Notes: generated from the sequence alone by a model not told the origin. Shown: positions 9,783 to 64,000, numbered from the stretch's first letter. The stretch: 64,000 nt of DNA from Haliotis rufescens (GCF_023055435.1 NW_025963802.1:7998001-8062000), one strand, 5' to 3'. Numbers and translations: made by a program.

Positions 9783-12700
9783 ATGGGACATTCTCTCTGT
9801 AAACTTGCAACACTCGGGTGGAAGAAAGATATGAAAATTATTATATTTGGTGCGTAGATCTACTGTTTTACATACTTAGAGCCAGAGACCATATATGGTC
9901 TCTGTTAGAACATTCATTTCAGATGGCACAACTACCGATGCCCCTAGTTCATGAGTAGCCGAGCATGTGGAGCAACAGTAGTCGGCGAGATCTGATAGTC
10001 AAGAAAATGTTTTCTTGACTGGCCCAATGCCAGGTATCGCGGCTAGCTCAACAGTAGGGTCAAGTTTTGACGATTTAGACCCCGGGCCCTTTCTCCATAG
10101 ATCATGACAGTTGACAGTTCTGTGTTTTATTTAAATTTGTTACAGAAAAATATATGATTTAATTTGACGTTATGAGAAACTTTCAGTTGGAATGGTTAGT
10201 GTGCTGAGTTTAATGTTCATAGTGCTAATATTTGCGTTACCCTACTGTATTTCCTTTGTATATCGAGCCTTTATATATAAAGCCCCTGCTTACGTTGATT
10301 TTTTTAAATTGATAGCCACTGCTAAGGATTAAATTAACCTTATTTACGTGCCAATGCGATATTTGAATTTCCAATGTTACAAAATGTATCCAGTTCTGCA
10401 TAGTTGTACCTAACCATGATGATACTTGCACTTTATGAGCTGAATCTGAGGGTAAGTTTTTTAAATGAGCTACGCCCTCCAAACAAGAGCTGCGTGAACA
10501 ATAGCCAGAGCCGTGATTGTGTCTGCATGACTAGCTGAGAGCTCTGTTGGGACCCAATTGACATGCAAGACAATAACATACTGACTAGGCTACTGTTGAG
10601 TGAGTGAGTTTGGTTTTACGCCGCTTTTAGCAATATTCCAGCAATATCACGGCGGGGGACATCAGAAATGGGCTTCACACATTGCACCCATGTCGGGAAT
10701 CGAACCCGGGTCTTCGGCGTGACGAGCGAACGCTTTAACCACTAGGCTACCCGACCGCCCCAGGCTACTGTTGAACCTCATCACTCATGTCAACTACAGG
10801 CAATGATTTCTCCCCACTGCATTTGAATACCATACATTTGACCAAACTCAGCTAATCCCTATCCCTTCTTGTCACAGATGTGAACAGAATAAGGGTAGGA
10901 TTGCTAATTTTATTTTAGAGCCAACCTCTAATTGGCTGCTTTTCACTACTGTATAACCATGTTCCCTTGGAATTCTTCAAAGCCGGGGACATTACCATGG
11001 TTACAAATAGAACTAGAAGTCACCTCATTGAAGATCAACATGAGGCTGTAGAATAGAAAAGTCCATTCCATGCATCATGTGCATATCTGCTTTGGTCTGT
11101 CATCTTTAACATGTTCAACACAATCTTCTTTCTTGCATTAGGTCTTGATGCTGCTGGAAAAACAACCATTCTGTACGTCCTAACGCAAGGAGAAGTGGTG
11201 ACAACCATTCCTACAATTGGTATGTCTGTATGTTTGGATATGTTTTTTGTGCCCCGACCTAAAAGGGCGGGTGGGTATATTGTTATACCAAGGAATTTCC
11301 TCCCTCCTTCTGAGGACATTTTTGTGTGTGACCTATAACCATGATAACTTAAAAACTACTTCATAGATTTTTTTCAAATGTGGTGAACACCTTTTATACC
11401 TATAGGAGAGGTGCAGCTTTTAATTCATTTTTTTACTTGCACATATATGTGATCCATAACTAGAAAACTGTTGCATGGATTATTTTCAAATTTAGGGACC
11501 AGTTTCCATACTAATCATGCTAATAGAAGAGATGCAGTGCAAAGTTTAATTTTGATATGTGTATTTTCTGAAAAAAATATGATTCTTTACCAGTGCTTGC
11601 ATGTCTTGAAATTAGAATATTTTTTTAACTTTTACATTTATGCAAGCTATAACTGAAAAAATACTTCACGGATTCTTTTAAATTGGGGATACAGTTTCTA
11701 TGCCATTAGGAGAGGTGCAGTGCAAAGTTTGATTTCATGTTTTGAACTTAGAAGTACATCATGTATGTTGGAATCGAAGTCGAGGGTATTAGTGAGCCCT
11801 GCTCAGTTTTTGTCTTGTTTGTTTAGTATTTTGATAGGTAAGTAGCAGCAGTGATATTAACTTGACTTTTGTCTCAGAATATCAACACTCTAACAGTAGG
11901 CAAGTACAAGGCTATGTTTATTGTGTAAATATAATCATGATAATGCTATGTAGATACGTTATGACTTTGGTTATGTTGGAGAGTGAGTTTGGTTCAATCA
12001 TGTTAATGTTTAATGTTTAATGCCACACTCAGATTTATTCTAGCTATATGACAGTGGTCTGTAAATCATCCAGTCTGGACCTGACAATCCAGTGATTGAT
12101 ATCATGAGCATTGATCCACGCAATTGAGACACGATGACATGCAGCAACCAAGTCAGTGAGTCTGATTACCCAGGTCCTTCAGTCGCCTCTTACAACAAGC
12201 ATGGGTTGCTGAAGACCAATTCAAATCTTCACGGGTCATGATGACTCTGGGTCAGAAAAGCAGATCCCAACAGAGCATATACACAGCATGTTCTATTGTG
12301 AGGGAGTTGGGTTTAACGCCGCTATTAACAGTATTCCAGTTATATCACGGCGTGTCAGCTTAATGTGGGAGGAAAGCCCGAAGTGATGCAGGTCTCAGAC
12401 GTTTACCACTTCGGTGAAACCCAGAGCACAGGTATGGTGCTGACAAAGCTATAAACATAATCGGGGCGAATTGGGATTCGAACCCACAATCCTAGGTTTC
12501 TTGCATGCCCAAGGGACGTAACTCTGCACAGCGAATCGCAGCGCCTTAGACGACTGGGCCACCCGTGCCCCCTGTTCTAGTGTGACGCCCATGTTATCTT
12601 GTACATATTGTGTGTTGACATGATCAGTGATGATAGGTATTAGTGCTATTTTTTGCATGTCATGTAAGAACCCATGACATAACCATGCAAATTTATACAC

Positions 12701-15700
12701 TGTGTTTTATTTCAGGTTTTAATGTGGAGCATTTTACACATAAGAATATCAGAATAGTGGCGTGGGATGTTGGCGGAAGGGACAAAGCTGTAAGTAGTTT
12801 TAATAACATCGCTCTGGACAATTGTCAAACACATTTACCATGTAAAAAGAGTTAAAAAATTGCATGTTTAGGGCTTTTCACCAGTTCAGGAATGTGGATT
12901 GTTGAATGAATTAGGTTTTCACTGTAATCCATTTTGACAAGGCAGTTGTTTGTTTCCTTGCCTAAAGTGAAAGACTTGATGGTTTCACTGTTTAGGCTAC
13001 TGATTTCTGATAGGGCTGGGACGAGTCCTGATTTACTACCTAGGTACCCGATCCCCTACTACCCGACCCTACCCTACCTGGGTACCCACTGCAGGTCTCA
13101 AGAGTTGAGAACAAAATGTCTGATTGGGAAATGTTTTACCGCAGCCCTGGGCAAAACTCTTTAGGTACATGTATCAAACGATCAGATCGTGCGTACACTG
13201 AAGTTAACTGAAGCTTTATCTGTAGTCAGACATGTACAAGTCAAAAGGAATGTCTGCATCGTAAGACGGAAAGGCGAACTTTAGCATGTTTAGCAACTTG
13301 TAGTTTAACCACTGAGCTATAATGAGTTTTTGTCATTAAACAATATATCAGGTGACTAGCCACAGGTCTGGGTAGTACTGTGGGTACCCGGGTCCTACTC
13401 AGGACCCACCCGAGTACCCGAGTTTCCCGTCCCAACCCTAATTTCTGAAATGAATAGACAATGACAATAACAGTCCCTCTGTGCAGTTTATGTTTATTCC
13501 TGCATCACAATGGCTTTTGAGACAAGGAATTCTGAAGCAATTATTAGATCATGGCTGAATACTATAGAATATGAACTGGGTATATAAAACAATGAAAATA
13601 AATATTGGGTAAGATATAATTTTGGCCACATTATATTTTCCCAAATATTGAAAGAAGAAATGTTCAGCATTAAACTTGTGTTACAATGGTTACATATGAG
13701 ATGTCTGATGCAGCTTGTCCAAACTGTACATCGTACAAGTACTGAAAAGGTTTGCGCCATGAAATTATTGTGAGTGGCTAACAATTGCCTTAACTTAACC
13801 TGGAGAGATTTTTGACACCCTGATAAGATTGACAAAGGACAAAGCTACTTATAACTTTTGCATTTCATTTTTGTAAGTAGGAAGGGGCTTGGTTCAGTTT
13901 CAGTTTATTTCTCTGAAAAACGACAAATGATGGTACAAGAGTATATATATGCATACACACAAAATCGAGGCATACGAATGTTCACTCGGTGTACATGTAA
14001 TATATAAAAAATAAAGACCATGTTAGTCCAACATCTTCTTTTTATCAGTTTCAGACATAGTACTTTGACTTTCTCATGACAGCTCTTCAGTGTAACTGAC
14101 AATGACATATGAATGATGTCATACTTATGACAACGTCATAAATTACAAATGTGACGTGATAATGTATTTACACACTCCAGCGAAGACACCACATAATATA
14201 ACAATTGTAGAGAGACATTTGAAGTAAAATCTACAGTATATTGTAAAGTAGATTGTGAGGTATTTCTACAAATACTGTAGATTTTAACCCTTGCCATCGG
14301 TGAAATGATAACCCAAGGTCAGTCAGTAATTTTTTAACTATAGGCACATGTGTGGTTGTAGTTGACAAGGGAGGTTGGAGTAGGGTTTATTCAACAGTAA
14401 AGAACTGATTGGCTTATGTCTGGACTAGTCGGTGACAGCTAAGTGAACTTTCCTGATTAAACTTTTGACAATGAGGACAATGTGTAATTGAGTATATTAT
14501 TTGATAATTCATGCACTGGCTGGTTTGACAATGTGTAGAAGTAAACAAAAGAAATATGCATCTTTACATTATTTGTTTCTTGTTGGTCTGAAAAATAAAT
14601 GCATCATAAAACTATTGCAAGTGTGTGTCATCCCCACATTTTGCAATACTGTCTTGCTCGCAAAACTGTCCAGATTTACCATGTTTACAGTATCAAGTAT
14701 AGGGGTGTCGCGATAAATTGAAATATCGATTAATTGCTGTTGGTAAGCACTTAAAGTCAATAAATCAATTGTTAAATCAGTTTCCAATCAATAGTATCGA
14801 TTTCAGTTAGGAATATTGATAATTTCTATTGTACATGCAATGCTGTTCAAATTTGTTTTTCTTTTGATCATGAGTGCTAGTAATTTACACATGATAATGT
14901 TGAAGTTTCTTTTTCTTAAATTATTTATAGGGTAAAGAAAAAACAAGTCAGTCATATCTCAAACTTAACTTTTTATTTGTTGTTATGGTTATCACATTCA
15001 AAGGAAACTACAGTTCCAAGGTTTAATTCAACTCTAAAATCCATCTAAAATGATACACTGAAAACTATCGATATTTATCGCAATAGTTGTTTGGAATATC
15101 AATAGTTATCGCAATAGTTTCTTTCAATATCAATAGTTATCGCATTAGTGATTTCCAGACCAATAGTCACCCCTAATCAAGTATGGTCCTTGTCTGAAGA
15201 TACCAAAGAAGCAGTAGTTTGTTCAGTCCTCCTCACTTCCTCTTTTCCAGCGGAGCTTGTACCGACACTACTTCCCTGGAGCATCAGCACTCATGTTTGT
15301 CATAGACAGCACTGATCAGGATAGGCTTGAAGAGATGACTGATGAGGTGAAGAGATTGGTGATGGACCCAGAGCTGGGAGAGGCTGTGATTCTGCTCCTG
15401 GCCAACAAGCAGGACATGGGCTCGGCCATGAGTGTGGAGGAGATCAAGGAAAAAATGAACTACAACAAATTATGTGAGCAAAGACCTTCTGGGAAAAGTG
15501 AGTGTGTTTCTGTTTTAGTTTTAGTCAAGATCTGCAGGCAATGTCAGCTTAGCTTATGTCATGCGTCTCTGTTGGTTGTCATATAAGCAGTATGAGCTTG
15601 TGTCATCGGTCTGTCTGTCAGTTGTCATACAAGCAGTGTGAGCTTATGGCATGGGTCTGTTTGGCTGTTGTCATACAAGCAGTATGAGCTTGTGTCATCG

Positions 15701-17017
15701 GTCTGTCTGTCCGTTGTCATACAAGCAGTGTGAGCTTATGTCATGGGTCTGTTTGTCTGTTGTCATACAAGCAGTGTAAGCTTATGTCATTGGTCTGTTT
15801 GTCCGTTGTCATACAAGCAGTATGAGCTTATGTCATGGGTCTGTTTGTCCGTTGTCATACAAGCAGTGTAAGCTTATGTCATTGGTCTGTCTGTCCGTTG
15901 TCATACAAGCAGTGTGGGGTGATGTCATTGGTATGACATTATGTCATCGGTCTAAGCCCGTTTGTTGTGATACAAGCAGTATGATGTCATGGGCCATGAA
16001 TGAGAGTGGCACCACAGTGTTCTGTTTACTATGACGTCGCTGCATTGTGACCTTGTTGGCTGACATCATAGCTCTGAGACGTCTTCATTGGAATGTCGCT
16101 ACATATTAGATATTGGGGGAAGTATGTATTAAATGCACACATGTTCATCACTTTGCCAAAACATGTGCACACTAACTGAGAAATAAGGTTTTACTCATAA
16201 GCTGTCAAAATATCTACTGTGAGTGTTTGCTCTACATGCCTCGATTGTAAATTGTGAACTTTGAGTGAATTTTTCCCCCTGGTGACCCAAGGTAGAGAAG
16301 CTTTTGGCACTGTGAACCTATTCTTCCCCAGAATCTAGGCTGGTCATTGGTTTGAAATGTTAATATCGACATTAAAGTATAACGATACAGCAATCAATAA
16401 TATAATTAAATTCTGGATGTGTATATATAAAATTTATCTACATGTATGTAGATCTGCAATTAGTCAATGTAGTGCTAAATATGATCTACACTGAGCAGAT
16501 AAATGTTTAAAATTGAATATTCTGCCTTCTCATTGTCCTTCCTGTCTATAGTACAATGTACAAGTATCCACGGATACTTGGGGCCCTAGAAATCTAACTG
16601 GAATAACCATTATTAAGAGGCAAACATACTGCTTATGTCTAAGTGCTTATGACAAATAGTGATCATGACAACAATGACAATTATATCCATGCTGACTGAA
16701 TATCATATTGTGGTCAATATTGATGGAAAAGTGACATTTCTTTTTCAGAAATGAACATATTTGGATGTTCAGCAGTGACGCCTGAGGGTCAAGGTGACTT
16801 GCTTAAGGCACTGGATTGGCTGAGTGAAGAATTGGTGCCGAAGTCTGGCTACTGGTTCCAGTCCTGGTATTCATCTGAAACTGGGAAAACGAAGGACAAA
16901 ACTAATAAGGCTCCATCCCAGGAAGGCTCAGATAGTGACAAGAAACCCTGGACATTCTCATCTTATGTGAAGGGGACGATTACAACTTTCAAAAGCTTGC
17001 TGCCAAGATTGTGGTAG
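9783..17017 (+). CDS. Arf/Arl-like small GTPase 1, 244 aa; exons 9783-9849, 11142-11219, 12716-12789, 15251-15497, 16749-17017
   Basis: Joined [37 protein letters not shown]...TTIPTIGFNVE...WDVGGRDK...ANKQD...CSAV. All introns are GT-AG, total 735 nt in frame. AATAAA at 17728. Confidence 0.93.
10600..10761 (-). mobile_element. tRNA-derived SINE, family B, with 13-bp TSD aggctactgttga
   Basis: Head ggggcggtcgggtagcctagtggttaaagcg...gggttcgattccc (A/B boxes) and tail gctaaaagcggcgtaaaacc+(ctca)n. Other copies near 7882, 23375, 24615, 26690, 27008, 30758, 34252, 39625, 42598, 49038, 56550, 56815, 60134, 63098. Confidence 0.9.
11245..11820 (+). mobile_element. Probable non-autonomous Helentron/HINE-like repeat in intron 2 of gene 1
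   Basis: T-run start with a GC-rich hairpin (gccccgacc...gggcgggtggg), internal diverged repeats (..cttca.ggatt..tcaaat..gg..aggagaggtgcag), and a ..cttgtt end. A similar start lies at 18085 (ttattatccctgccacgaag...gtccgtccatccgtc). Confidence 0.45.
12300..12572 (-). mobile_element. SINE family D copy
   Basis: Near full-length match to the 8050-8297 copy. Confidence 0.8.
13011..13440. mobile_element. hAT-type MITE, 430 bp
   Basis: TIR tagggctgggacg...cgtcccaacccta with a perfect 8-bp TSD atttctga (13003-10 and 13441-48). Confidence 0.9.
14700..15175. mobile_element. hAT-type MITE, 476 bp
   Basis: TIR taggggtg...caccccta with a perfect 8-bp TSD atcaagta (14692-99 and 15176-83) and subterminal atcgat/atcgca repeats. 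Confidence 0.9.
15540..15990. repeat. About 46-bp minisatellite in intron 4 of gene 1
   Basis: gtcatacaagcag recurs at 15670, 15716, 15762, 15808 and onward. Confidence 0.9.
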
Positions 17018-24227: not shown

Positions 24228-27200
24228 ATGGGGCAGTATTTCTGCAAACTTGGATGGTTTAAGAAGAAGGATGTTAGACTGCTTATGCATGGTAGGTATA
24301 ATTTCATTTCGTTTTGTTCCTATTGAGTCATTACCATATAGTTTCGTTTGGAAAATATCGAAAATATTGGTAGCTCAAGATCCGAACATGAAGCACTAGC
24401 TCCGAAGTCGAAGCTATGTACTGCTTATATGTTACTATCAGGCATACATACTTGTTTCTAAAACATGACCATACGAATTGGGATGGGATTTAAGAAATAA
24501 AATGTTCCAGTTAAACTGTAACAAATAGACTCTCATTTCGGAGAAAAAATGTTTGCCTTGACACAGTGACTTATACATTGTATAATAATAGTATCTCCAT
24601 GCTGTACCATATAGAAGGAGCGGTCTAGTGGTTAAAGCGTTCGCTCGTTACGCCGAAGACCCGGGTTCGATTCCCGACATGGGTACAATGTGTGAAGCCT
24701 ATTTCTGGTGTCCCCCGCCGTGATATTTCTGGAATATTGCAAACAGCGGCGTAAAACCATACTCACTCACTCCACTGTACCATATAGCTTTGTTTTGAGC
24801 CCCCGTTGAATTATGCGATGCTAAATATAGCAGTCCAACCAACGTAGACTCGTGTGCGCGAGAAATTCGTTGGGAAATATCTGATAAGAAGTTGATATAG
24901 TGGCGTCACTTGCCGGGGGACGCCATGGTAGCGAACAGGTCGTGCAATCGAGGGTATTTGATCTCAACAGATTAGATAAACTGACAATGTCACACGCATA
25001 GTTGGATAGCGAGTAGGTGAGTTCAAAATTAAAGTCGCATCGGCAATATAGCGACTGCAACAAGGAAGTGTATTTTCTTGAGTTGAGAACCAGATAACAC
25101 GTACAAATAAACTGTGTCTCATCTGTGTTAATTGGTCGACCTGAAACCAACCGTATAGTCAGGATTTTGTCCTCATTGAACGAGCTAAACAACAATCTAC
25201 AACTCATGATAAAACACAATTCTACAGAACTGAGTGATGTAAGAATGTTCTTTTTATGCGGGGTGATGCATGGTCAACCTTATTTACTTCCAGGACTCGA
25301 TGCTGCAGGGAAGACCACGATAATGTACATGCTTAAACTCGGAGAGGTTGTTTCAACCATTCCAACAATTGGTGAGCCTGATTGGAGATAACTTTCTGAA
25401 TTTATAAATGTTTAGAATATCCCTTGAGGGCCGACATTATATAATGAGCGAAGCATTTCAAATTCTGATTAATGGGCTTATTAATACAGAACAAGTAACT
25501 CGTAACTGTCAGCTTCCCGTCATCAATCACTGCACTGTACTGCACAGCTCATTAATAGGGTTTTGTTTGTTTGCTATATGACGGCCGTCTGTAAAAAATT
25601 GTCTGGACCAGACAATCCAGTGACTTACATCAAGAGTATCGATCTACGTAATTGGAATGCGATGACATGCATCAACAAAGGCAGCGAGTCTGACTACGCG
25701 ATCCCTTTAGTCGTCACATACGACAAGCGTAGTCGCCTTTTACGGCAAGCATGGGTTGCTGAAGACCGATTCTACCTGGGTTCTTCACGGGTCCAGCGAT
25801 AGGATGGCCTTATAAAAATATATATATTCATCAAGAATCTGACAACATCCATTCTATACTTCTGTTTGCAGTCATAAAGACCAATTCAAACCCGCATATT
25901 CATGGGTTTCATGGTAGGGAAAATTTTCGATTGAAATTTAAAATGGTTCTTAATTCACGCTTTGTTCGAAATTTCAGGTTTCAATGTGGAGACGGTTACA
26001 TACAAGAATATCAACATCACGTCCTGGGATGTGGGTGGCAGAGGCGCTATCGTGAGTTGGGATGCTCATTCCTGTATTTTTTGTTTGTCGATTGTGAAAA
26101 ATAATGTGCAGATCACTTAAAACTCATGCTTTCATTTGCATTTTTAGCTCAGGTTAACCGGAAGTCCATGTGAGCTTATGTCGTTGCTGTAATCCATGGT
26201 CCCGCCATCCAACCGTCATAAATATTTCGACCAAGCATATGATGCTTACTGTCTTTTTTTTTCAGCGCCCCCTGTATCGCCACTACTACCCCGGCACCGA
26301 CGCCGTCCTGTTCGTGGTTGACAGCAATGACCTGGAACGTATGGAGCAAGCCAGGGACGAGCTGGTACGTTTGCTTGAGGAAAAGGACCTCAAGGACACC
26401 GTCTTCCTCGTACTGGCCAACAAGCAGGACCTGCCAGGCGCCATGACAGTTCCAGAGGTTGCCAAGGCAGTGGACTTCCAGGGGATACTGAAAACTCATA
26501 GTAAGTTGAAAGAATAATATAAGTGTAAGATTGTTATAGTTTTGTAAACTTATACTTTGAAATGATCACCAGACTAGACACTTTGAACATCCTTGTACAT
26601 GTTCGGACCCATGCGTGTATGTTCATAGTGGGAACTTTGGGAACTCCCTCTCACACCTTTGACATATTGAACTATTCTAACAACGAATGAATGAATGAGT
26701 ATGGTTTTACACAATATTCCAGCTATATCACCGTGGGAGACAGAAGAAATTGGTTTCACACATTGTACCCATGTGGGCATCGAGCCCGAATTTTCAGAGT
26801 GACACTCAAACGATTTAACCAGTTGGCTGCCCCACTGCCCCTCTACCATCGATCAAAAAGTTACTGACTATCTGTACGGAGTGAATAAATGGTATAAGTC
26901 CCGAGGCTTGCGGACACATGTGTTTCTCAATCACATAAAGACATCATCTTAGTCAATCTATTGTTTGAAAGACGTGGCATAAATTTGCCTGTGACACTAT
27001 AAACATTGAGTGGGTGAGTGAGTATGGTTTTACGACGCTTTAGCAATATTCCAGCAATACGCCGGCGGACACGAAAAATGGGCCTCACACATTGTATCAA
27101 TGTGAGGAATCGAACCCGTGCATTCGGTGTGACGAGCCTAACAACTAGGCTACCCGACCGCCCCCTATAAATATTTGATGACATAACTTTTGTTGACATT

Positions 27201-27768
27201 TAAGGTGAGGTGAAATACCATGCCGCAGTTTAACATGAATACCCCACTCAGACACAGTATACTGACTCCAAACCGACCAGTCCTTGTTTTAGCCCCTTAA
27301 TGCCGAGCGCCAGACAGGGTAACAACACGTACCATCTTTTAACGTCTTTTGACGTATGACGCGGCCGGGGATCGAACCCCGGACCTTCCGCTCTCCGGGC
27401 GGACGCTCTACCACTAGACCAAGGAAGCGGTCTGACAGTTAAGCTGTTGTAGGGGAACTACAGTGCCGTGACGCTATTGTTTAGTTATGATAAATGAAAC
27501 ACATTAAAATGCTCACTATTGGCTTATTCTAGGAGCGACCATCATAGGATGCAGTGCTATCTCAGGTGAGGGACTTAATGACGCCCTGCACTGGATGTCA
27601 CAGGAATTTGCCGAGGGGAGGTCACGGCAAAGCCCGGATGCTAACCCTAGTGACCCGGAAACAGATGCAACCTCGGAGAAGAAGACTGAAAAGTCTCCCT
27701 GGTCTCTGTCCACTTACATGAAAGGAACACTGGAGTCTCTGAAAGCGTTTTTACCGAAACTAGGTTGA
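24228..27768 (+). CDS. Arf/Arl-like small GTPase 2, 228 aa; exons 24228-24291, 25294-25371, 25978-26051, 26266-26500, 27533-27768
   Basis: [33 protein letters not shown]...STIPTIGFNVETV...[17 protein letters not shown]...ANKQD...CSAISGEG...AFLPKLG. GT-AG introns, 687 nt in frame. AATAAA at 27811. Confidence 0.95.
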
Positions 27769-31126: not shown

Positions 31127-33957
<2,831 letters not shown>

Positions 33958-44464: not shown

Positions 44465-44601
44465 GTTTACATAAACTTGGCTACGGCTCTACTTGAAATT
44501 CGCGCTAAACGATTCGCAGCACATTCTAATTGCGGAACCGTTACAGAGTATGACCACTAGTACACGCACGCCCCTGGCGGATAAGTACGGCGGTACTCCC
44601 C

Positions 44602-46075
44602 ATTAGCAGAATATCTGCAGAGTGGAAATGGATATCGTTTCATGGGTAGCAAACCGACTATTTCAGTTTCATGCGGGTCCAACCGGCTCATTCCATTACC
44701 TCCAGCGATATGACTCTTTGGGTTTGAGCCGTGTCGTTGTTTTTTCTATGCCAAATCCACTTTTAGAAGAAGAAAAAAGAATCGCATAAAGAAGGATGAA
44801 TATTCAAACGTGCACGTTGTGTTTTAATTCACGTAACTGAGCAGGCATGGTGGAAGCGATGATATCGGAAGAGTAACGAAGGTTCCACCCGCTGGGAAGG
44901 AGCTTGTTTTCGGATGAAGATCAAAGGGAGACAACTCAGTAAACGATTTCATACACTCATACAGTGTTTTGTAATTAGCAGAATACCTGCAGAGTGGAAA
45001 TAGATGTCGTTTCATGCGTAGCACACCGACTATTTCAGTTTCATGCGGGTCCAACCGGCTTATTCCATTACCTCCATACTACAGCGATATGACTCCTTTG
45101 GGTTTGAGCCGTGCCGTTGATGGTCAAAGGGAAGTAACTATAAATTCTGTTTTCATTTGCCAAACTGTCTTACCTCCCTTGGGGGCAAGGGACGTAACTC
45201 TTGATTTGATGTGCGTTATTATCTCCCTTTGATCAGGGAACACACCGTGTTTGAAGTTTTAAGCGAGACACTGTACGGAGTTTAGGCAAGGGAGTTAACT
45301 CTTGTACAAACACGATTACCTCCCTTTGACCACAAACAAAACCACTGCCGCCTCCTTTATGCTGTTTGTTTTCGATGTCAAGTCCATGTTTAGAAGAAAC
45401 CAGAATCGCATAAAGGAGGATGAATATGCAATCGTGAACGTTTTGATACACGTAACTGAACCATCTTAGTGGCAGCGATGGTATTGGAAGAGTAACGAAG
45501 ATTCCATCCGCTTGGAAGGAACTTGTTTTCGGATGAGGATCAAAGGGAGACAACTCAGTAAACGATTTCATACACTCATACAGTGTTTTGTAATTAGCAG
45601 AATACCTGCAGAGTGGAAATAGATGTCGTTTCATGGGTAGCACACCGACTATTTCAGTTTCATGCGGGTCCAACCGGCTTATTCCATTAACCATACTACA
45701 GCGATATGACTCCTTTGGGTTTGAGCCGTGCCGTTGATGGTCAAAGGGAAGTAACTATAAATCCTGTTTTCATTTGCCAAACAGTCTTACCTCCCTTGGA
45801 GGCAAGGGACGTAACTCTTGATTTGCTGTGCGGTATTATCTCCCTTTGATCAGGGGAACAAACCGTGTGTGAAGTTTTAAGTGAGACACTGTACGGAGTT
45901 TAGGCAAGGGAGTTAACTCTTGTACAAACACGATTACCTCCCTTTGACCACAAACAACACCACTACCGCCTCCTTTGCGCTGTTTGTTTTCGATGTCAAG
46001 TCCATGTTTAGAAGAAACCAGAATAGCATAAAGGAGGAAGAACGTTGAGTTTTCATTCACATAACTGAACCAGCT
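44602..46075. repeat. About 620-bp tandem repeat array, right part
   Basis: Same unit as 35350-36906; period 619 bp (44978 to 45597). Confidence 0.9.
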
Positions 46076-46536
46076 TGGCAGAGCTTCTATCCCAATTAAG
46101 TGTTGAAGCTCAGGGCATGAGATCAAGAGTCCAGTGGAATTCATGGGACGTGGGGTCGAACTCCGTCAAAAGCTTATACTTTTTTTTGTAGTTTGCCACC
46201 TAGGAAAAGCTATACCCATACAGGAAGAAAGGAAAATATTACATATCCCATTCAATTGTTATTTACCTGTGTATGCAAGTGTTCATAGTCTCAAATGCAT
46301 CACCGCTAAAGACTGTTTTCTCTTTTACCTTATTATCAGCATTGCAGTTTGGATTTGGACTTGAGAGCTTAGTTTTACACATATTGACACTCAAGCTCTA
46401 TGCATGAGAGTTGGTTACACGCACGGCTTGAAGATCCGGGGTAGAATAGGTCTTAGAATAGGATCGGATGGTCAGGCTCGCTGACTTGCCTAATGTATGT
46501 CATCGTATCCCAATTGCGTGGATCGATGCTCATCGA

Positions 46537-49500
46537 TAAATCACTAGATTGTCTGGTCCAGACTCGATTATATACAGACCGCCGTAATATAGCTGGAATA
46601 TTGCTGAGTGCGGCGTTAAACTACAAACAACAACATGCACAACATTAATTACTGAAGCCGAAGGGTGTATGGACGTAAGACATTATAACTGTGACAGGTT
46701 CTGTGAATATAGCATCGTGGTGTTCATGATAAAATGATGGCCAAACTCATAAAATATATAACTGAAAGATTAAACGAATAAACTCATTTGTCTCATTATT
46801 ATTTGAGCCGTGAAGATCCGCGAAAGGAATAGGTCTTCAGCAACCCATGCTTGCCGTAAGAGTCGCCTATGCTTGTCGTAAGAGGCGACTAACGGGATCG
46901 GGTGGTCAGGCCCGCTGACTTGGTTGATGCATGTCATCGAATGTCAATTGTCTGGATCGATGCTCATGATATCAGTCACTGGATTGTCTGGTCCAGACTC
47001 GATTATTTACAGACCGCCATCATATAACTTGGCTATTTCTGAGTGCGGTGTCAAACAACAAAGAAACAAAAGCTAATGTCGATATGTATTGAGGCGATTG
47101 ATCAATACACAATTTCATGATCAATTCGTGTTTGCATTCCATTCAATGCTTGTTTTAATACTGTAGCTGTAATACCGGGTAACACACCATACGGTCCTTG
47201 TTTATAGTTACGGACAGAGAAAGTAGATCTATATGTTTTCTGTCACAAATGAAGAAAAAATACATTGTTTGAATCAAACCCCAGACTCGTCTTCACTCAA
47301 CGTTATCACCTTGTCTGGTTACAGTGGATGTTGCATCTATGATCATGATTAACGTAGTAGATAACGTACTTTGACCTAGTCCAGATCAAAATCCGGTATC
47401 AATAACAGTCAACGATAAATAGCGTGACGTACGTCCGCCCAGCGTGTTTGTGCCAGGTTAACAACTCCACGGTGTGGGGTCGGTATATATATATATACTT
47501 GTACACACCAGCCTACTTGGCGATATATTCAAGTACTATTGATGAGGACCGGTCGCATTACGAAACTACGGTGTCTTGAACTTCCAGCTGACACAGGCTA
47601 CGGTCGACAGACGGAATGGGGCAATATATTAGTATGCTGCCATGGCTAAGGAAGGAAGTGGTAGTTCTCATGCATGGCACGTATATAGTACTTATTACCT
47701 TCAAGATAGTCATCGAGTCGTATTTAAAGACTGGAAGACCAAAAGTAACACGTGACCTGAATACGTCATATATTAGATTTAATATAATAATTAATTGGCC
47801 TACCTAGTTAGATCTGTGTCTTTGAAAGATTGAGCATGGGTTTATCTTTTATCCATATTCTTTTATTTTTCAAACGATAACCGCTCCGTTTAAAAAAGAA
47901 GTGACATATTTTATTTTCCAATTTCCGCATGATCACAATTTCACGCAAAAAAATGTTTAAAACTCAGATTTTACAGCCAGGTCTTGAGGAACAGAAAAAC
48001 GTTAATTAATCCACGAACAATGTTAAAAGGAATCCTATTTAGTTAGTTAAGGGACTGTAGCGTGTTCCATAATTATAAAGTAAACAATGTACCATCTTGG
48101 TCTTTCTGCTGATTTGAGTTTGAATTGCAGTGCGTGACGTTTAAAGGTATTCTACAAAGGTTTACAATTACGTACACCATTCAGACCAGTGTTTTTTAAC
48201 CAGGCCGACTTACTTAAACTTCCTTGTTTTTTACTATTGAAATAGCAGTTAGCTTATGACCTTTCATTAAAACTCTGTTTATTTCACCCGACTGATAATT
48301 ACTGCTTTAAGCAATCATTATAGCAACGATATTATATTATTGATAATTATTGTTTAACGCCGCTCTCAGCAATATTCCAGCCATATGACGGCGGTCTGTA
48401 AATAATCGAGTCTGAACCAGACAATCCAGTGATTGATCGATGAGCATCGATCCACGTAATTGCGATAGGATGACATGCATCAACCAAGTCAGCGAGACTG
48501 ACTACCCGATCCCATTAGTTGCCTTTTACGCCAAGCATAGTCACCTTTTAGGGCAAGCATGGGTTGCTTAAGACCTATTCTACCCTAGATTTTCACGGGT
48601 CTATATATTGATTACAAAAGCAGAAAATTAATGGTAAATTATGGTAATGGTTCTTGTTTTAATCTATTTTTAATGTTTCTTGAAAGAAAATGGAAAACTA
48701 CACACGGGAAATTCAGAATGACAACCCCTTTGTACAAATGCATATACATATTATCACATTACATGTATATTATAAAGATATCATTATATCATACAAATAA
48801 CCAAACGAACTTAATGTGATCATGGTCGCTTTATCCAGTCACATGTGTCCTTATATTTCAGGGCTTGATAATGCAGGGAAATCCACGCTGTGTTACCTGC
48901 TAACATCACGACTTCACGGCACACCGCCAACCCGCTGTGAGTAGGACCCTGCAATACAATGTATTTAAATGATAAATTATAAGTCTGCATTTCACTGGGG
49001 TCAGTTTAACTCTCCAAGTATACATCGAAAGAAATATGGGGCGGTTGGGTAGCCTAGTGGTTAAAAGTGTTTGCTCGTCATGCCGAAGACCCAGGTTCGA
49101 TTCCCCACATGGGTACAATGTGTGAAGCCCATTTCTGGTGTCCTCCGCCGTGATGTTGCTGGAATATTGCTAAAAGAGGCGTGAAACCACTCATCACTCA
49201 CTCACTCACTCACTCACTCACTCACTCACTCACTCACTCGAAAGAAATATTAATCTGTGAATGCCAATAAACTCACGCCAGCTTCTACAAATATAAAACT
49301 CGTGTTTTTTCGTTCATTTATATTTCACCTCATTTGTTATGTATTAACTGTATAGAACAATTCGTGTTGTGTGATGTTAATGTAGTACATACCGAAATGT
49401 GTTTGATGTTTTACGCCCCACTCAGCACTATTCCTGCTCTATGACGGCGGCCTGTAATTAATCGAGTCTGGACCAGACAATCCTGTGATTGATATCATGG

Positions 49501-49950
49501 GTATCAATCTACACTTGGGATATGATGAGTTGCATCACCCGACCATCCGATCCGTGAGTCGGGTTGCTGAAGACGACTCAAGCCCGGATCTTCACGGGTT
49601 AGATAACTGACTTATGCATCGTTTGTCGTGACTGTATGCCATGCCAGTAATAACGATGGTTTATGTTTCAGATGATGCCAAAAAGACATTAGTCTACAAC
49701 AACATCAAGTTGACACTGATTGACGGGGGGCAGAGAAGGCGTGGGGTGAGTTATGTCACATGGTTTAAGATCAACTACTCAAATAACACAGCAACACAAA
49801 TAAGCTTTGGAATTACATAAAATGTAACGGACTAAAACGGCTAGGTTCGGGATGTTTCAGTATTGCTGTACTTATACGTCGACACAATGTGTGATCTACA
49901 TTAATTTTTCAGGTCGCCTTTTAAGACAAGCAAAGCATATGACTTATTCT
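46537..49950 (+). repeat. Segmental duplication copy 1 (matches 60618-64000)
   Basis: Near-identical collinear sequence including introns and shared SINE insertions, offset about 14.08 kb. Confidence 0.95.
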
Positions 49951-51048
49951 GACCAAGAATCCATTTGATTGCCATTGGTCCTTTGCGAGTGCCTGACCGT
50001 GTGTGTTTGGTGTCCTGATGATGCTTGTTGGTATGTCGCCATCAAGTCTACGTTTGTTGTTTTCACCAAAGCGGTAAACGTCTAAGAGTTCATCGCGTCG
50101 GACATTCGTCGGACATCAAGCTGACGCATGCGCTGAAATACTATTCAACGTTGCTTTGAAACAAATAACCCCACTCCCAAGTTAGGCCTAGACACTGTAA
50201 TGCATAATGGTAGTAGCCTGTGACGGCTGGAGAGCAGCGCCCCGCCGCATCAGGCCGCTGTTCATGAGATGATTGTCCCCCATCCCCAGTATCCCCGGCA
50301 CAACTACAAACACATCGACGTCGTCCTGTTCATGGTAGACAGCAACGACCGGGACCGTATACAGGAGGCCCAGGACGAACTGAGACTTGACGCTCAGGAT
50401 GCAGCACTCAAGAACACCCCCTTCCTTGTCCTCGCCAACAAGCAGGACCTGCCGGCCGCCCTGACAGCACCAGAGGTTGCCGAGGCAATGGACTTCCAGG
50501 AAATACTCAAAGCTCACAGTAAGTTGCAGATAAAATTATTCTTATACTGTTTTCTTTCTTTTCCATCATGTTGTTTGTTTGTTGTTTAACGCCGCACTCA
50601 TAATAAACATTATTAACGTAAACATTGTCGCCGTCAGAGTACACATGGAACCACAAAGAGAGTTCGCTATATTCGTTATTTCGTCATAAGCGTGTTCGTT
50701 ATATCCATCAATTCTTTTAGATAAAATAGACAGCAAATGGCCGGGACAAAATCCTGTTCGTTATATCCGTCAATTCGTTGTAAGCGTCTTCGTTATAAAC
50801 GTAGTTTACTTTACATGCTTCCAGGGGCCAACATTATAGGATGCAGCATTCTCTCAAGGTCAGGCATTAAAGACGCCTTGGATTGGCTGACACAAGAATT
50901 CCAGAGTCCCTGTAAAGGCTCGAAAGCTTCCCCTTACAAGGAAGAGATCGATGAAGCCATAGTTGGGAAACGCGAGGCTTGGTCCATTTTTACCTACATA
51001 AGAGACATATTTGAATATTTGAAAAGATACCTACCTAAATTGAAATGA
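47616..51048 (+). CDS. Divergent Arf-like protein 4 (possible pseudo-GTPase), 220 aa; exons 47616-47676, 48862-48936, 49672-49745, 50290-50518, 50825-51048; intron 1 has a GC donor
   Basis: MGQYISMLPWLRKEVVVLMHGLDNAGKSTLCY..HGTPPTRYDAKKTLVYNNIKLTLIDGGQRRRGYPRHNY..ANKQD..CSILSRSG..RYLPKLK. 663 nt, no stop or frameshift, same intron phases as genes 1-3. Confidence 0.8.
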
Positions 51049-51469
51049 TCCAGAGACTATTACATACCCGAAATATTAAACAGACTGTTTGGCCATGGTA
51101 ACACCACCATGTTTGGTTGGTTGGTGTGTTGTTTAACGCCGCTCTCAGCAATATTCCAAGTATATTAGGGCGGTCTGTTAATAATCGAATCTGGACCAGA
51201 CAAACGAGTGATTGACATCTAAGCATCGATTTACGCAATTGGGATACGAGGACATGCAGGAACCATGTCAGCGAGCATGTCCATCCGACCCTGTTAGTCT
51301 CCTCTTACAACAAGCATGGGTTGCTGAAGATAAATTCTAACATGGAATCTTCAGGGGAACACAATACTGAGGTTGGGTGTCATGTTTCGTCACCCTTCAC
51401 ATCTGGCAGACTGATTCCTTGTTAAATTCTTTGGATCAACAAAGTTTCATATTTCCCTCGGACTCATTG

Positions 51470-51810
51470 GATTGTACATTATATGATCGAGTGTTGACAT
51501 CGTGCACAGATTGGATTGCACATTATATGATCGAATGTTGACATCGTGCATAGATTGGATTGTACATTATATGATCGAATGTTGACATGGGTGCACAGAT
51601 CGGATTGTACATTATATGATCGAATGTTGACAAGGGTGCATAGATTGGATTGTACATTATATGATCGAATGTTGAAAAGGGTGCATAGATTGGATTGCAC
51701 ATTATATGATCGAATGTTGACATTGTGCACAGATTGGATTGTACGTTATATGATCGAATGTTGACAAGAGTGCATAGATTGTATTGTACATTATTCGATC
51801 GAATGTTAGT
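51470..51810. repeat. 44-45-bp minisatellite, about 8 units
   Basis: atatgatcga recurs at 51481, 51525, 51569, 51614, 51659, 51704. Confidence 0.93.
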
Positions 51811-52349
51811 GTTGTTTATTTGATTGAATGTTGAAATTGTGTACATACATGTATATCTCATCACTGGAGGTGTGTTTCAAACTTTCACTTAATGTAAATG
51901 TGAATATGTGTGCTTTTTTTGTTTTACGGACATTATCATCATTGCCACATGCTGTGGATGTATTATTTATAACTAATAAATCGCTTAACTTGTAAGTTCT
52001 TGCAACGCCTTTTTAAGTATCCCACAATATCCACATATACGATACAGTGGTTGATCGAGGTTTCTGTTTTACATTTTCCACAGCAATGAAACGGCAGGGG
52101 GACACAAAAATGGACTTCACAAGATTGTACCGGAAACGCTTTTTAATGAATGGGCTATCACACTGCCATTATTTCGCTGACAGAAAGATAGTTTATTATA
52201 GTCTCGCCTTAAAAATAAAGTGCATACGGAACATATTAAAATATACATAATGCGCCATCCCTCATCTTGGGATTGAGATGCTAAATTAAATTTAAATAAT
52301 AATTTAAATTCTCTTAAGAAATTGTTATTTTAATCTGAACATACATCAA

Positions 52350-53250
52350 ATAAAGAGTTTGCAAGATTTTGATATTAGGGGCAACAGTCGTGCAAATGAA
52401 TTCGAGTGGCGTATAGCAGCCTGTGTCTACACGTAGGGGGGCTACCCACGCGTCTGCACATCGACAGCGCTCCCTTGTGACATACTCTCTGTAATAAAGG
52501 CTTCATCCCCATAGTCTGTCTTAAAGGCGCGGTTAACCCGGGAGTTTATTTCCTGTCCTGCCATTTCTGCTATTTTGAGACACTTTATTGTCTCGTTCTA
52601 ATCTTCTTTATACTTCTTGAAAAGGACGTTCTGTACAAAAGATACAATAGTTTAAATCTTGAGTCCGTTGGGACCATCAAATACGTCAGGGAGGTTTATA
52701 GCGTTCAATTTGACACGTATACGTTTGATCCAGTTGTTCTTATTAAATAAAGCTTGTCGTCTAGCCCATCGGAACACATTGTATGTGAGTGTTTGTGTCT
52801 AGGCTATTCAGTCTTGTGTAGACCGAAGAATTTGAATTTGGATATTAATAATCCCTGCTCCCGATTGGCCGAGCTTGCTACTGCTTTAGCCATGCGCGAG
52901 TAATCTAAATGCTCTGTTATCAATAGTAACTGTCAGCAATTTCAAGAAGTATATTTCCACATTAAAGACAGTCTGTCCTTGGTGTTGCCAAACGTCTACA
53001 GGAAAGAACTTTACATTTCTCCTGGTGCACAATGTTTGTTCATATCGCACCAGTTATGAAGACATTCTAAGAAAGCATTTGGGTCTGCTTCATATTTCTG
53101 CTAGAAGTACTGATACGGTTTATAGGCTAATACAGTTCCTCATCGTCGTTCCTCATCCTATATGCAATCCATTTAAAGTAGTAATGCGTTCGTTGAATTT
53201 GTTGCCCTCTTCTCCTATTGAACCACTTAAATTCTCGGTAAGCCTCACAC
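52350..53250 (-). mobile_element. Highly decayed LINE ORF2 fragment (post-RT region)
   Basis: Minus-strand peptides FLECLHNWCDMNK and EHLDYSRMAKAVASSANREQGLLISKFKFFG resemble the thumb region of non-LTR reverse transcriptases. Many stops. Confidence 0.5.
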
Positions 53251-60617: not shown

Positions 60618-63600
60618 TAAATCACTAGATTGTCTGGTCGAGACTCGATTATATACAGACCGCGGTAATATAGCTGGAATATTGCTGAGTGCGGCGTTAA
60701 ACAACAAACAACAACATGCACAACATGGCGTGTTCTAATTTCTGAAGCCGATCGAAGGGTGTATGGACGTAAGACATTATAACTGTGACAGGTTCTGTGA
60801 ATATACCATCGTGGTGTTCATGATAAAATGATGGCCAAACTCATAAAATATATAACTGAAAGATTAAACGAATAAACTCATTTGTCTCATTATTATTTGA
60901 GCCGTGAAGATCCGGGAAAGAATAGGTCTTCAGCAACCCATGCTTGCCGTAAGAGTCGCCTATGCTTATCGTAAGAGACGACTAACGGGATCGGGTGGTC
61001 AGGCTCGCTGACTTGGTTGATGCATGTCATCGAATGTCAATTGTTTGGATCGATGCTCATGATATCAATCACTGGATTGTCTGGTCCAGACTCGATTATT
61101 TACAGACCGCCATCATATAACTTGGCTATTTCTGAGTGCGGTGTTAAACAACAAAGAAACAAAAGCTAATGTCGATATGTATTGAGGCGATTGACGTTCA
61201 CAATTGCATGATCAATTCGTGTTTGCATTCCATTCAATGCTTGTTTTTAATACTGTAGGTGTAATACCGGGTAACACACCATACGGTCCTTGTTTATAGT
61301 TACGGACGGAGAAAGTAGATCTATATGTTTTCTGCCACAAATGAAGAAAAAATACATTGTTTGAATCAAACCCCAGACTCCTCTTCACTCAACGTTATCA
61401 CCTTGTCTTGTTACAGTGTATGTTGCATCTATATGATCATGATTAACGTAGATAACGTACTTTGACCTAGTCCAGATCAAAATCCGGTATCAATAACAGT
61501 CAACGATAAATAGCGTGACGTACGTCCGCCCAGCGTGTTTGTGCCAGGTTAACAACTCCACGGTGTGGGGTCGGTATATATATATACTTGTACACACCAG
61601 CCTACTTGGCGATATATTCAAGTACTATTGATGAGGACCGGTCGCATTACGAAACTACGGTGTCTTGAACTTCCAGCTGACACAGGCTACGGTCGACAGA
61701 CGGAATGGGGCAATATATTAGTATGCTGCCATGGCTAAGGAAGGAAGTGGTAGTTCTCATGCATGGCACGTATATAGTACTTATTACCTTCAAGATAGTC
61801 ATCGAGTCGTATTTAAAGACTGGAAGACCAAAAGTAACACGTGACCTGAATACGTCACATATTAGATTTAATATAATAATTAATTGGCCTACCTAGTTAG
61901 ATCTGTGTCTTTGAAAGATTGAGCATGGGTTTATCTTTTATCCATATTTTTTTTATTTTTCAAACGATAACCGCTCCGTTTAAAAAAGAAGTGACATATT
62001 TTATTTTCCTATTTCCGCATGATCACAATTTCACGCAAAAAATGTTTAAAACTCAGATTTTACAGCCAGGTCTTGAGGAACAGAAAAACGTTAATTAATC
62101 CACGAACAATGTTAAAAGGAATCCTATTTAGTTAGTTAAGGGACTGTAGCGTGTTCCATAATTATAAAGTAAACAATGTACCATCTTGGTCTTTCTGCTG
62201 ATTTGAGTTTGAATTGCAGTGCGTGTCGTTTAAAGGTATTCTACAAAGGTTTACAATTACGTACACCATTCAGACCAGTGTTTTTTAACCAGGTCGACTT
62301 ACTTAAACTTCCTTGTTTTTTACTATTGAAATAGCAGTTAGCTTATGACCTTTCATTAAAACTCTGTTTATTTCACCCGACTGATAATTACTGCTTTAAG
62401 CAATCATTATAGCAACGATATTATATTATTGATAACAATTTCTTTGTTTAGTTCGTTTGTTGTTTAACGCCGCTCTCAGCAATATTCCAGCTATATGACG
62501 GCGGTCTGTAAATAATCGAGTCTGAATTCATTCATTCATTCATTCATGCATCAACCAAGTCAGCGAGCCTGACCACCCGCTCCCGTTAGTCGCCTTTTAC
62601 GCCAAGCATAGTCACCTTTTAGGGCAAGCCAGGGTTGCTGAAGACCTATTCTATCCGAGATCTTCACGGGTCTATATATTGATTACAAAAGCCGAAAATT
62701 AATGGTAAATTATGGTAATGGTTCTATTTTTAATGTTTCTTGAAAGAAAATGGAAAATTACACACGGGAAATTCAGAATGACAACCCCTTTGTACAAATG
62801 CATATACATATTATCACATTACATGTATATTATAAAGATATCATAATATCATACAAATAACCAAACGAACTTAATGTGATCATGGTCGCTTTATCCAGTC
62901 ACATGTGTCCTTATATTTCAGGGCTTGATAATGCAGGGAAATCCACGCTGTGTTACCTGCTAACATCACGACTTCACGGCACGCCGCCAACCCGCTGTGA
63001 GTAGGACCCTGCAATACAATGTATTTAAATGATAAATTATAAGTCTGCATTTCACTGGGGTCAGTTTAACTCTCCAAGTATACATCGAAAGAAATATGGG
63101 GCGGTCGGGTAGCCTAGTGGTTAAAAGTGTTTGCTCGTCATGCCGAAGACCCAGGTTCGATTCCCCACATGGGTACAATGTGTGAAGCCCATTTCTGGTG
63201 TCCTCTGCCGTGATGTTGCTGGAATATTGCTAAAAGCGGCGTGAAACCACACTCTCACTCACTCACTCACTCACTCACTCACTCACTCACTCACTCACTC
63301 GAAAGAAATATTAATCTGTGAATGCCAATAAACTCTCGCCAGCTTCTACAAATATAAAACTCGTGTTTTTTCGTTCATTTTTATTTCACCTCATTTGTTA
63401 TGTATTAACTGTATAGAACAATTCGTGTTGTGTGATGTTAATGTAGTACATACCGAAATTTGTTTGTTGTTTTACGCCCCACTCAGCACTATTCCAGCTC
63501 TATGGCGGCGGCCTGTAAATAATCGAGTCTGGACCAGACAATCCTGTGATTGATATCATGGGTATCAATCTACACTTGGGATATGATGACTTGCATCACC

Positions 63601-64000
63601 CGACCATCCGATCCGTGAGTCGGGTTGCTGAAGACGACTCAAGCCCGGATCTTCATGGGTTAGATAACTGAACTAAGCATCGTTGGTTGTGACTGTATGC
63701 CATGCCAGTTATAACGGCGGTTTATGTTTCAGATGATGCCAAAAAGACATTAGTCTACAACAACATCAAGTTGACACTGATTGACGGGGGGCAGAGAAGG
63801 CGTGGGGTGAGTTATGTCACATGGTTTAAGATCAACTACTCAAATAACACAGCAACACAAATAAGCTTTGGAATTACATAAAATGTAACGGACTAAAACG
63901 GCTAGGTTCGGGATGTTTCAGTATTGCTGTACTTATACGTCGACACAATGTGTGATCTACATTAATCTTCAGGTCGCCTTTTAAGACAAGCAAAGCATAT
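60618..64000 (+). repeat. Segmental duplication copy 2 (continues past the window)
   Basis: Matches 46537 onward; the junction falls inside a family A retroposon. Confidence 0.95.
61705..63806 (+). CDS. Divergent Arf-like protein 5 (duplicate of gene 4), partial; exons 61705-61765, 62922-62996, 63733-63806; rest beyond the window
   Basis: Same peptide as gene 4 exons 1-3. The only coding difference seen is a synonymous aca/acg. GC donor at 61766. Confidence 0.8.

What the first reader, a model, noticed from the sequence alone, without database searches (positions are those of the whole stretch)
48862..50518. Genes 4/5: switch regions rewritten while the frame is preserved (candidate pseudo-GTPase or decoy)
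Seen: [15 protein letters not shown] becomes RLHGTPPTRYDAKK, WDVGGR becomes IDGGQR (DxxG lost with the exon still 74 nt), and the G5 Ala becomes Ile. The P-loop GLDNAGKS, NKQD, splice phases and C-terminal helix are kept, and exon length changes are multiples of 3. Established: F51 and W66 of the Arf effector-binding triad map to the altered positions. Inference: purifying selection on the fold but a new or non-switching surface.
Basis: partly seen in the sequence, partly recalled or inferred. Interest (0 to 1): 0.7.

Follow-up and report, generated by a model that had tools for sequence, protein, structure and literature searches.

The report
Abalone Arf-like GTPase with rewritten switches
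An abalone carries a spliced, intact copy of a little-studied small GTPase gene whose two switch regions have been rewritten while the rest of the protein is conserved, so it likely acts as a membrane-bound protein that no longer flips on and off like an ordinary GTPase.

Summary
Genes 4 and 5 encode the same 220-aa protein, the divergent member of a five-gene abalone cluster that is probably Arl20 (Arg at the catalytic Gln71 position, C-terminal tail). The five-exon transcript is spliced in 6 of 6 putative-RNA runs laid (six studies, five organism labels). It uses a GC donor, which gives a myristoylation-type N-terminus that the public models miss. On the gene-4 branch dN/dS is 1.45 in the switch region (not different from 1; background 0.19) and 0.33 elsewhere (below 1, p=6e-5). 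Kept: P-loop, G2 Thr48, G3 Asp67, NKQD. Lost: Gly50, Phe51, Asn52-Val53, Trp66, Gly70, Ile74, Arg75, Tyr81 and G5 Ala160; the effector face turns basic (+8). Most likely a membrane-anchored, non-switching atypical GTPase, like the RGK proteins, though nucleotide binding is untested. 'Decoy' is unsupported and a recent pseudogene is unlikely. Positive selection is not shown, and gene 5 may be an assembly duplicate. New variant of a known kind.

The parts
47616..47676 (+). Gene 4 exon 1 (start MGQYIS, Gly2/Ser6 myristoylation-type motif, strand beta1); followed by a GC splice donor
   Evidence: X2 contig covers 47519-47675 and its spacing to exon 4 is exactly 150 nt
48862..48936 (+). Gene 4 exon 2: P-loop GLDNAGKS and rewritten switch I; TPPT with G2 Thr at 48921-48932; one codon shorter than in genes 1-3
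   Evidence: spliced in X4, X11, X13
49672..49745 (+). Gene 4 exon 3 (74 nt): interswitch and G3 region IDGGQRRRG (49719-49745)
   Evidence: ungapped DNA alignment to genes 2 and 3; spliced
50290..50518 (+). Gene 4 exon 4: end of switch II (6 nt shorter, acceptor probably slid), beta4-alpha4 core, NKQD at 50437-50448
   Evidence: spliced at this acceptor
50825..51048 (+). Gene 4 exon 5: G5 CSIL (50842-50853), alpha5, linker, amphipathic C-terminal helix (50980-51045), stop
   Evidence: exon 4-5 join in X1, X2, X4, X6
60618..64000 (+). Start of the tandem copy that holds gene 5: exons 61705-61765, 62922-62996, 63733-63806; exons 4-5 lie beyond the window (64350-64578 and 64885-65108 in window numbering, locus L001)
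   Evidence: same protein, 1 synonymous difference
9783..17017 (+). Gene 1, WDVGGR paralogue with C-terminal helix (5 exons)
24228..27768 (+). Gene 2, WDVGGR paralogue (= P0011)
31127..33957 (+). Gene 3, WDVGGR paralogue (= P0125)

Best explanation
Genes 4/5 are a spliced, conserved duplicate of a probable Arl20-type Arf GTPase whose switch machinery has been rewritten, so the protein likely sits on membranes, likely still holds a guanine nucleotide loosely, and likely no longer hydrolyses it or toggles between two shapes. Shown: transcript, intact frame, motif gains and losses, region-specific dN/dS. Inferred: (1) the N-terminal Gly2/Ser6 motif and the amphipathic C-terminal helix anchor it; (2) the P-loop, Thr48, Asp67 and NKQD keep GDP/GTP-Mg binding, loosened by Ala160Ile; (3) Arg71 removes intrinsic hydrolysis; (4) loss of Gly70, Arg75, Trp66, Asn52-Val53, Gly50 and Ile74 uncouples nucleotide state from the interswitch toggle; (5) the old hydrophobic effector patch is replaced by a basic surface with a new, unknown partner, so activity would be set by expression and location.
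For: Spliced contigs in 6 of 6 putative-RNA runs laid, while DNA-like run X15 reads through intron 3. Codon model on the gene-4 branch: omega 0.33 outside the switches (versus 1, p=6e-5) and 1.45 inside (versus background 0.19, p=6e-8; versus the rest of the gene, p=1e-9); the three tree shapes gave 1.45-1.72 and 0.33-0.35. Cross-run variants in exons 2-4 are 6 nonsynonymous and 8 synonymous (pN/pS 0.25, p=0.01). Gene 4 versus 5: 1 of 663 coding bases differ against 25 of 1974 unique intron bases (p=0.01). A substitution-only neutral simulation kept the frame in 0 of 5000 runs at 0.6 substitutions per site, while a much younger copy of gene 1 (L004) is already frameshifted. The lost residues are those tied to gamma-phosphate sensing and the toggle (PMC3012027) and to effector binding (PMC4956616); G5 Ala changes speed exchange in RAS (PMC8295990). 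AlphaFold gives an Arf fold (best match 4c0a, rmsd 1.9) with a core above 90 pLDDT but switch I at 39 and switch II at 57, against 71-82 and 78 for gene 2. Net charge of the switch stretch is +7 against at most +4 in 252 other Arf domains.
Against: No biochemistry or protein evidence. Switch omega is not above 1 (p=0.23), so relaxation and adaptation cannot be separated; fitted alone the switch gives 0.56 (versus 1, p=0.27). The exon 5 variants shown are 7 nonsynonymous and 0 synonymous; with them pN/pS is 0.51, p=0.10, and hid 81 rows. Present-day constraint on the new switch is only a hint (p=0.03 with all runs plus P0001, 0.26 with the three fully counted runs). Neutral drift reaches +8 charge in 3-4% of simulations, a test chosen after seeing the data. 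HMMER aligns D-GGQ with gaps, which would keep Gly-Gly-Gln. Low pLDDT may reflect conflict with the alignment, and the folded model (P0122) lacks the true exon 1. No orthologue was found outside close Haliotis relatives.
Confidence: 0.55

Rival explanations
1. It is still a working switch with new specificity: the D-G-G-Q loop re-registers so that a Gly senses the gamma-phosphate and the Gln (perhaps with one of the three Arg) restores catalysis.
For: Thr48, Asp67, Asp26, Asp96, Arg99 and Glu106 are kept. HMMER's alignment to Arl1 places GGQ and an Arg in register using two one-residue gaps.
Against: The DNA of exon 3 aligns without gaps to genes 2 and 3, so the change is V68G plus G70Q with Arg71 kept. 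Trp66, Asn52-Val53, Gly50 and Ile74 are lost under either alignment. Switch II is 2 residues shorter.
Confidence: 0.17
2. It is a nucleotide-free (class I) pseudoGTPase used only as a fold or scaffold.
For: Ala160Ile in the guanine pocket and loss of Gly70. The best fold matches include Sec7-bound Arf1 forms, which is weak evidence.
Against: G1 Lys-Ser, G2 Thr, G3 Asp and G4 NKQD were all spared while only 15 of 45 switch residues match gene 2. That pattern suggests selection to keep binding.
Confidence: 0.13
3. It is a transcribed duplicate that recently lost its function and is decaying.
For: Switch omega is not different from 1. Exon 5 shows 7 nonsynonymous and 0 synonymous variants in the rows shown. 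Intron 1 has a GC donor. No H. asinina orthologue was found.
Against: Omega is 0.33 outside the switches. All four introns are spliced. No frameshift or stop was listed in the coding exons covered in five organism labels. pN/pS is 0.25 in exons 2-4, and the damage is confined to one functional surface.
Confidence: 0.1
4. It is a decoy that soaks up pathogen effectors or host regulators that bind Arf proteins.
For: Tandem expansion and fast change of an interaction surface; solved complexes of bacterial proteins with Arf1/3/6 exist (titles).
Against: The common effector-binding triad and hydrophobic pocket (PMC4956616) are the very part destroyed. Escape from a binder would fit better than mimicry, and there is no immune-expression evidence here.
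Confidence: 0.05

Closest known systems
Arl20 (Vargova et al. 2021, PMC8358228)
   Same: Arf1-derived invertebrate group. Arg at the Gln71 position in 18 of 19 Arl20 sequences seen in the supplement and in all five genes here; most have a C-terminal tail; paralogue pairs are common; 4 of 19 also lack Gly70, and 2 rotifer copies lack Asp67.
   Different: All 19 keep a PT-x-G switch I, which gene 4 does not. Gene 4 also loses Trp66, Arg75, Tyr81 and Ala160 and has deletions in both switches. No function for Arl20 was found in print.
RGK GTPases (Rad, Rem, Gem/Kir; PMC4081519)
   Same: G1 and G4 kept, switch I divergent, DxxG glycine lost, and thought to deviate from the GDP/GTP switch.
   Different: Ras subfamily, not Arf. 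RGK lose the G2 motif and keep G5, whereas gene 4 keeps Thr48 and changes G5 Ala. The resemblance is convergent.
Atypical ARLs (ARL10, 13, 14, 15, 16) and pseudoGTPase classes I-III (PMC12722892)
   Same: Arf-family members lacking the catalytic Gln or with abnormal nucleotide behaviour.
   Different: Those are old conserved paralogues; this is a lineage-restricted copy beside its intact siblings, with the whole effector face replaced.
Arf1/Arl1
   Same: Fold and best sequence matches (1moz E 4e-24; PF00025 E 2.5e-35; 4c0a).
   Different: Lacks the wDvGGqxxxRxxW signature (recalled) and the F51/W66/Y81 triad; has a tail of about 50 residues.

Membership tests
ARF family GTPase | Arf profile match and fold | tested here: met
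   PF00025 122 bits against cutoff 22.3; Foldseek Arf1 rmsd 1.9
ARF family GTPase | P-loop Asp26 and alpha3 network (Asp96, Arg99, Glu106) | tested here: met
   alignments; residues from PMC3012027
ARF family GTPase | N-terminal myristoylation motif (Gly2) | tested here: met
   MGQYIS in exon 1, in frame through the GC donor; the modification itself is not tested
Canonical switching Arf | G3 DxxG with Gly70, Trp66, Arg75, N-[VI] toggle motif | tested here: not met
   a gapped register that keeps GGQ remains possible
Canonical switching Arf | Catalytic Gln71 | tested here: not met
   Arg in register in all five genes
Canonical switching Arf | Effector triad Phe51/Trp66/Tyr81 | tested here: not met
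   Asp/Ile/Asn (triad from PMC4956616)
Arl20 | Three group-specific intron positions plus one shared with Arf1/Arf4 | tested here: inconclusive
   Four coding introns here, at the same positions in genes 1-5; the paper's supplementary figure 11 with the positions was not seen
Arl20 | Monophyly with reference Arl20 sequences | tested here: inconclusive
   The reference sequences were not in my tree. Gene 4 nests with genes 2/3 (UFBoot 94), and these with unnamed WDVGGR protein P0140 (79); deeper nodes are 20-75
Arl20 | Arg at position 71 and a C-terminal tail (my reading of the supplement, not the paper's definition) | tested here: met
PseudoGTPase class II (binds, cannot hydrolyse) | Guanine nucleotide binding | not testable with these tools
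   G1, G2 Thr, G3 Asp and G4 present; G5 Ala changed
PseudoGTPase class II (binds, cannot hydrolyse) | No GTP hydrolysis or conformational switch | not testable with these tools
   inferred from motif loss only
Pseudogene | Disabling lesions, no splicing, dN/dS near 1 throughout | tested here: not met
   exon 5 variants point the other way

The most novel reading that the evidence does not exclude
A young Arf-family pseudoGTPase caught being born: a probable Arl20 duplicate whose whole effector face was adaptively rebuilt into a fixed basic surface on a doubly membrane-anchored, switch-less G domain. Its intact siblings sit beside it as controls, and it would be the extreme case of a repeated tendency of Arl20 duplicates to lose the G3 glycine.
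Probability: 0.25. Interest if true: 0.68.

Novelty: new variant of a known kind. Interest (0 to 1): 0.45.

Why it matters
PseudoGTPases are mostly known as old, finished products. Here the switch-less candidate, its intact siblings and cross-species variation are all available, so the steps from switch to non-switch can be tested directly. It also gives a handle on Arl20, a group absent from vertebrates with no functional study found, and it corrects public gene models that miss the myristoylation-type N-terminus. The limits are that it is lineage-restricted, has no known partner or phenotype, and degenerate Arf paralogues are not rare.

Tried and rejected
Compensating frameshifts as the cause of the rewrite: rejected; the exons align codon for codon and exon 3 aligns without gaps to genes 2 and 3. 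Upstream acceptors for exon 4: rejected; contigs join at 50290. The N-termini of P0121 (GT donor after 47660), P0122 and P0001 (intron read-through): not supported by the X2 contig, though minor isoforms are not excluded. Arl17: rejected; the tail here is about 50 aa, not the roughly 100-residue Arl17 domain. A switch-region search for distant orthologues returned only P0001 among 2 candidates; the 50% representative library gave no second close relative among the best 150 shown. These searches have limited reach (the exon-4 search did not list H. asinina P0279 in its top 120). No run was on record as RNA, and contig depth cannot rank expression. Earlier scan findings: none by sequence or place. 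Literature: 'ADP-ribosylation factor' + Haliotis + expansion gave 2 unrelated papers; Arl20 + GTPase gave only the defining paper; a toggle-residue search gave 0. No complex prediction was run, as there is no candidate partner.

Full report
Setting. The window is G000:C24:7998001-8062000. Database models of genes 2-5 are labelled Haliotis rufescens on a contig of the same length as C24. Five Arf-like genes lie head to tail on the + strand, each with five coding exons and introns at the same positions and phases. Gene 4 runs 47616-51048. Gene 5 lies in a tandem repeat offset by about 14 kb (96.8% identical over 8.3 kb). It encodes the same 220-aa protein, with one synonymous difference. A DNA search with exon 2 found only these two copies in the genome.

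Observation. In Arf1 numbering (from PMC3012027 and PMC4956616, passages read), gene 4 keeps Gly2, Asp26, Lys30, Ser31, Thr45, Pro47, Thr48, Asp67, Asp96, Arg99, Glu106 and NKQD. It changes Gly50Tyr, Phe51Asp, Asn52Ala, Val53Lys, Trp66Ile, Val68Gly, Gly70Gln, Ile74Gly, Tyr81Asn and Ala160Ile, and it loses one residue in switch I and two in switch II, including the exon-4 Arg75. Position 71 is Arg in all five genes. Exon 3 aligns without gaps to genes 2 and 3 (32 of 74 bases each), though with a gap to gene 1, so DGGQ is best read as substitution in register. HMMER prefers a gapped register that keeps GGQ. Comparing acceptors suggests that a new AG arose just inside ancestral exon 4 and cut off the Arg75 codon (inference).

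Transcription. The run search listed 24 runs, none on record as RNA. I laid 6 of the 14 small-share putative-RNA runs and 1 of the 4 DNA-like holders. All 6 hold spliced contigs. X11 and X13 each join exons 2-3-4 in one contig at the predicted boundaries, and X4 joins exons 2-3. X1, X2, X4 and X6 join exons 4-5. One X2 contig reaches from exon 1 to exon 5 with 150 letters between 47675 and 50290, exactly 1+75+74. This supports the GC donor after 47676 and the MGQYIS start, which P0121, P0122 and P0001 lack. X15 reads through intron 3, as DNA should. These runs span six study codes and five organism labels. Contigs cannot give expression level, and cannot separate gene 4 from gene 5.

Selection. 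Switch-region identity is 15 of 45 for genes 4 and 2, 34 of 48 for genes 2 and 3, and 33 of 48 for genes 1 and 2. In the rest of the G domain it is 67, 80 and 50 of 107. My four-sequence codon model gives the gene-4 branch omega 1.45 in the switches and 0.33 elsewhere, against backgrounds of 0.19 and 0.22. The non-switch value is below 1 (p=6e-5; 0.40, p=0.002 fitted alone). The switch value differs from background (p=6e-8) but not from 1 (p=0.23; 0.56, p=0.27 fitted alone). Apparent gene conversion between genes 2 and 3 and near-saturated synonymous sites limit these estimates. Variants read from the runs in exons 2-4 are 6 nonsynonymous and 8 synonymous (pN/pS 0.25, p=0.01). The exon 5 rows shown are 7 and 0, which brings the total to 0.51 (p=0.10), and hid 81 rows. 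In the three fully counted runs, exons 2-3 differ at 2, 0 and 1 of 149 bases and exon 4 at 6 of 230 each. That hints that the new switch sequence is now held, but is not significant (p=0.33). Genes 4 and 5 differ at 1 of 663 coding bases and 25 of 1974 unique intron bases (p=0.01). A copy of gene 1 on C1 (L004, about 85-94% DNA identity) already has a frameshift and has lost NKQD, whereas gene 4 has stayed intact over a far longer branch (0 of 5000 neutral simulations survive 0.6 substitutions per site).

Age and family. A tree on 114 non-switch columns of 28 sequences nests gene 4 with genes 2/3 (UFBoot 94), as sister to gene 2 plus its H. asinina counterpart (78/72). This weakly suggests an origin before those species split. 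The only named orthologue found is H. cracherodii P0001. In PMC8358228 (passages, section 10 part 1, and supplement passages read), Arl20 is an Arf1-derived group missing from vertebrates. Of 19 Arl20 sequences displayed (the first 22 of 172 mentions), 18 have Arg at position 71, 4 lack Gly70, 2 lack Asp67, and all keep PT-x-G. Genes 1-3 resemble them closely, so the cluster is probably Arl20. The intron figure and a joint tree were not available to me. Among 277 Arf domains in hand, 25 failed a switch I or G3 pattern, of which 5 are gene-4/5 forms: degenerate switches exist elsewhere, but this is an extreme case.

Structure. AlphaFold on P0122 (77 sequences, wrong first 13 residues) gives an Arf fold with core pLDDT above 90, switch I 39, switch II 57, a disordered linker and a C-terminal helix. 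Gene 2 folded the same way (75 sequences) gives 71-82 and 78 in the switches. Foldseek's best match is Arf1. The tail helix is more amphipathic in gene 4 (moment 0.69) than in genes 1-3 (0.32-0.42). The switch stretch carries net charge +8 against 0 to +2 in genes 1-3; by a common pattern it is +7 against at most +4 in 252 other domains, and neutral drift reaches +8 in 3-4% of simulations.

Mechanism. The parent group already lacks the catalytic Gln. Gene 4 then lost the residues that PMC3012027 links to gamma-phosphate sensing and the interswitch toggle, and the effector triad and pocket of PMC4956616, while sparing the phosphate, Mg and guanine contacts except G5 Ala. In RAS, changes at that Ala speed exchange (PMC8295990, passages). 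The most likely product is a membrane-anchored G domain that binds nucleotide loosely, does not switch, and presents a new basic face (0.55). It would work like RGK proteins (PMC4081519, passage) or a class II pseudoGTPase (PMC12722892, passages) without belonging to either lineage. Rivals: re-registered working switch (0.17), nucleotide-free scaffold (0.13), decaying gene (0.10), decoy (0.05).

Novelty. I found no paper on this gene or on Arl20 function, and no earlier scan note; subscription journals are not covered. Atypical ARLs and degenerate Arl20 paralogues are known, so this is a new variant of a known kind. Interest 0.45.

Noticed in passing
window 47677-47682 and 61766-61771: Intron 1 of genes 4/5 has a GC donor (GT in genes 1-3). 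Public models P0121, P0122 and P0001 miss exon 1 and so the myristoylation-type N-terminus.
   Followed up: yes
window 9783-33957: Genes 1-3 are probable Arl20 members with Arg in place of catalytic Gln71 and a C-terminal amphipathic helix; databases call genes 2 and 3 'ARF1-like' or 'ARF-like'.
   Followed up: partly
L004 (G000:C1:35247319-35252129, minus strand): Dispersed copy of gene 1 with introns, a frameshifting deletion in exon 4 and NKQD changed to NKPG: a probable pseudogene.
   Followed up: partly
window 46537-60617 versus 60618 onward (L001, L002): Tandem repeat of about 14 kb with uneven divergence (2-3% at the 5' end, 0.2% just 3' of the gene): recent duplication with conversion, or an uncollapsed haplotype.
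   Followed up: partly
window 27533-27768 and 33728-33957: The tails of genes 2 and 3 are nearly identical in protein over the last 40 residues, suggesting gene conversion or strong constraint.
   Followed up: no
G000:C101:24947919-25249122: A second cluster of at least seven Arf-like exon matches with a different exon layout.
   Followed up: no
PMC8358228 supplement: Limpet, sponge and two choanoflagellate Arl20 paralogues lack the DxxG glycine, and two rotifer copies lack the aspartate: degenerate Arl20 duplicates recur.
   Followed up: partly
window 44600-46076, 35337-36900, 51466-51807, 54001-55060: Tandem repeat arrays; the 44.7-46.0 kb array matches 35.3-36.6 kb at 93%. Many short interspersed repeats also lie in the introns.
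   Followed up: no
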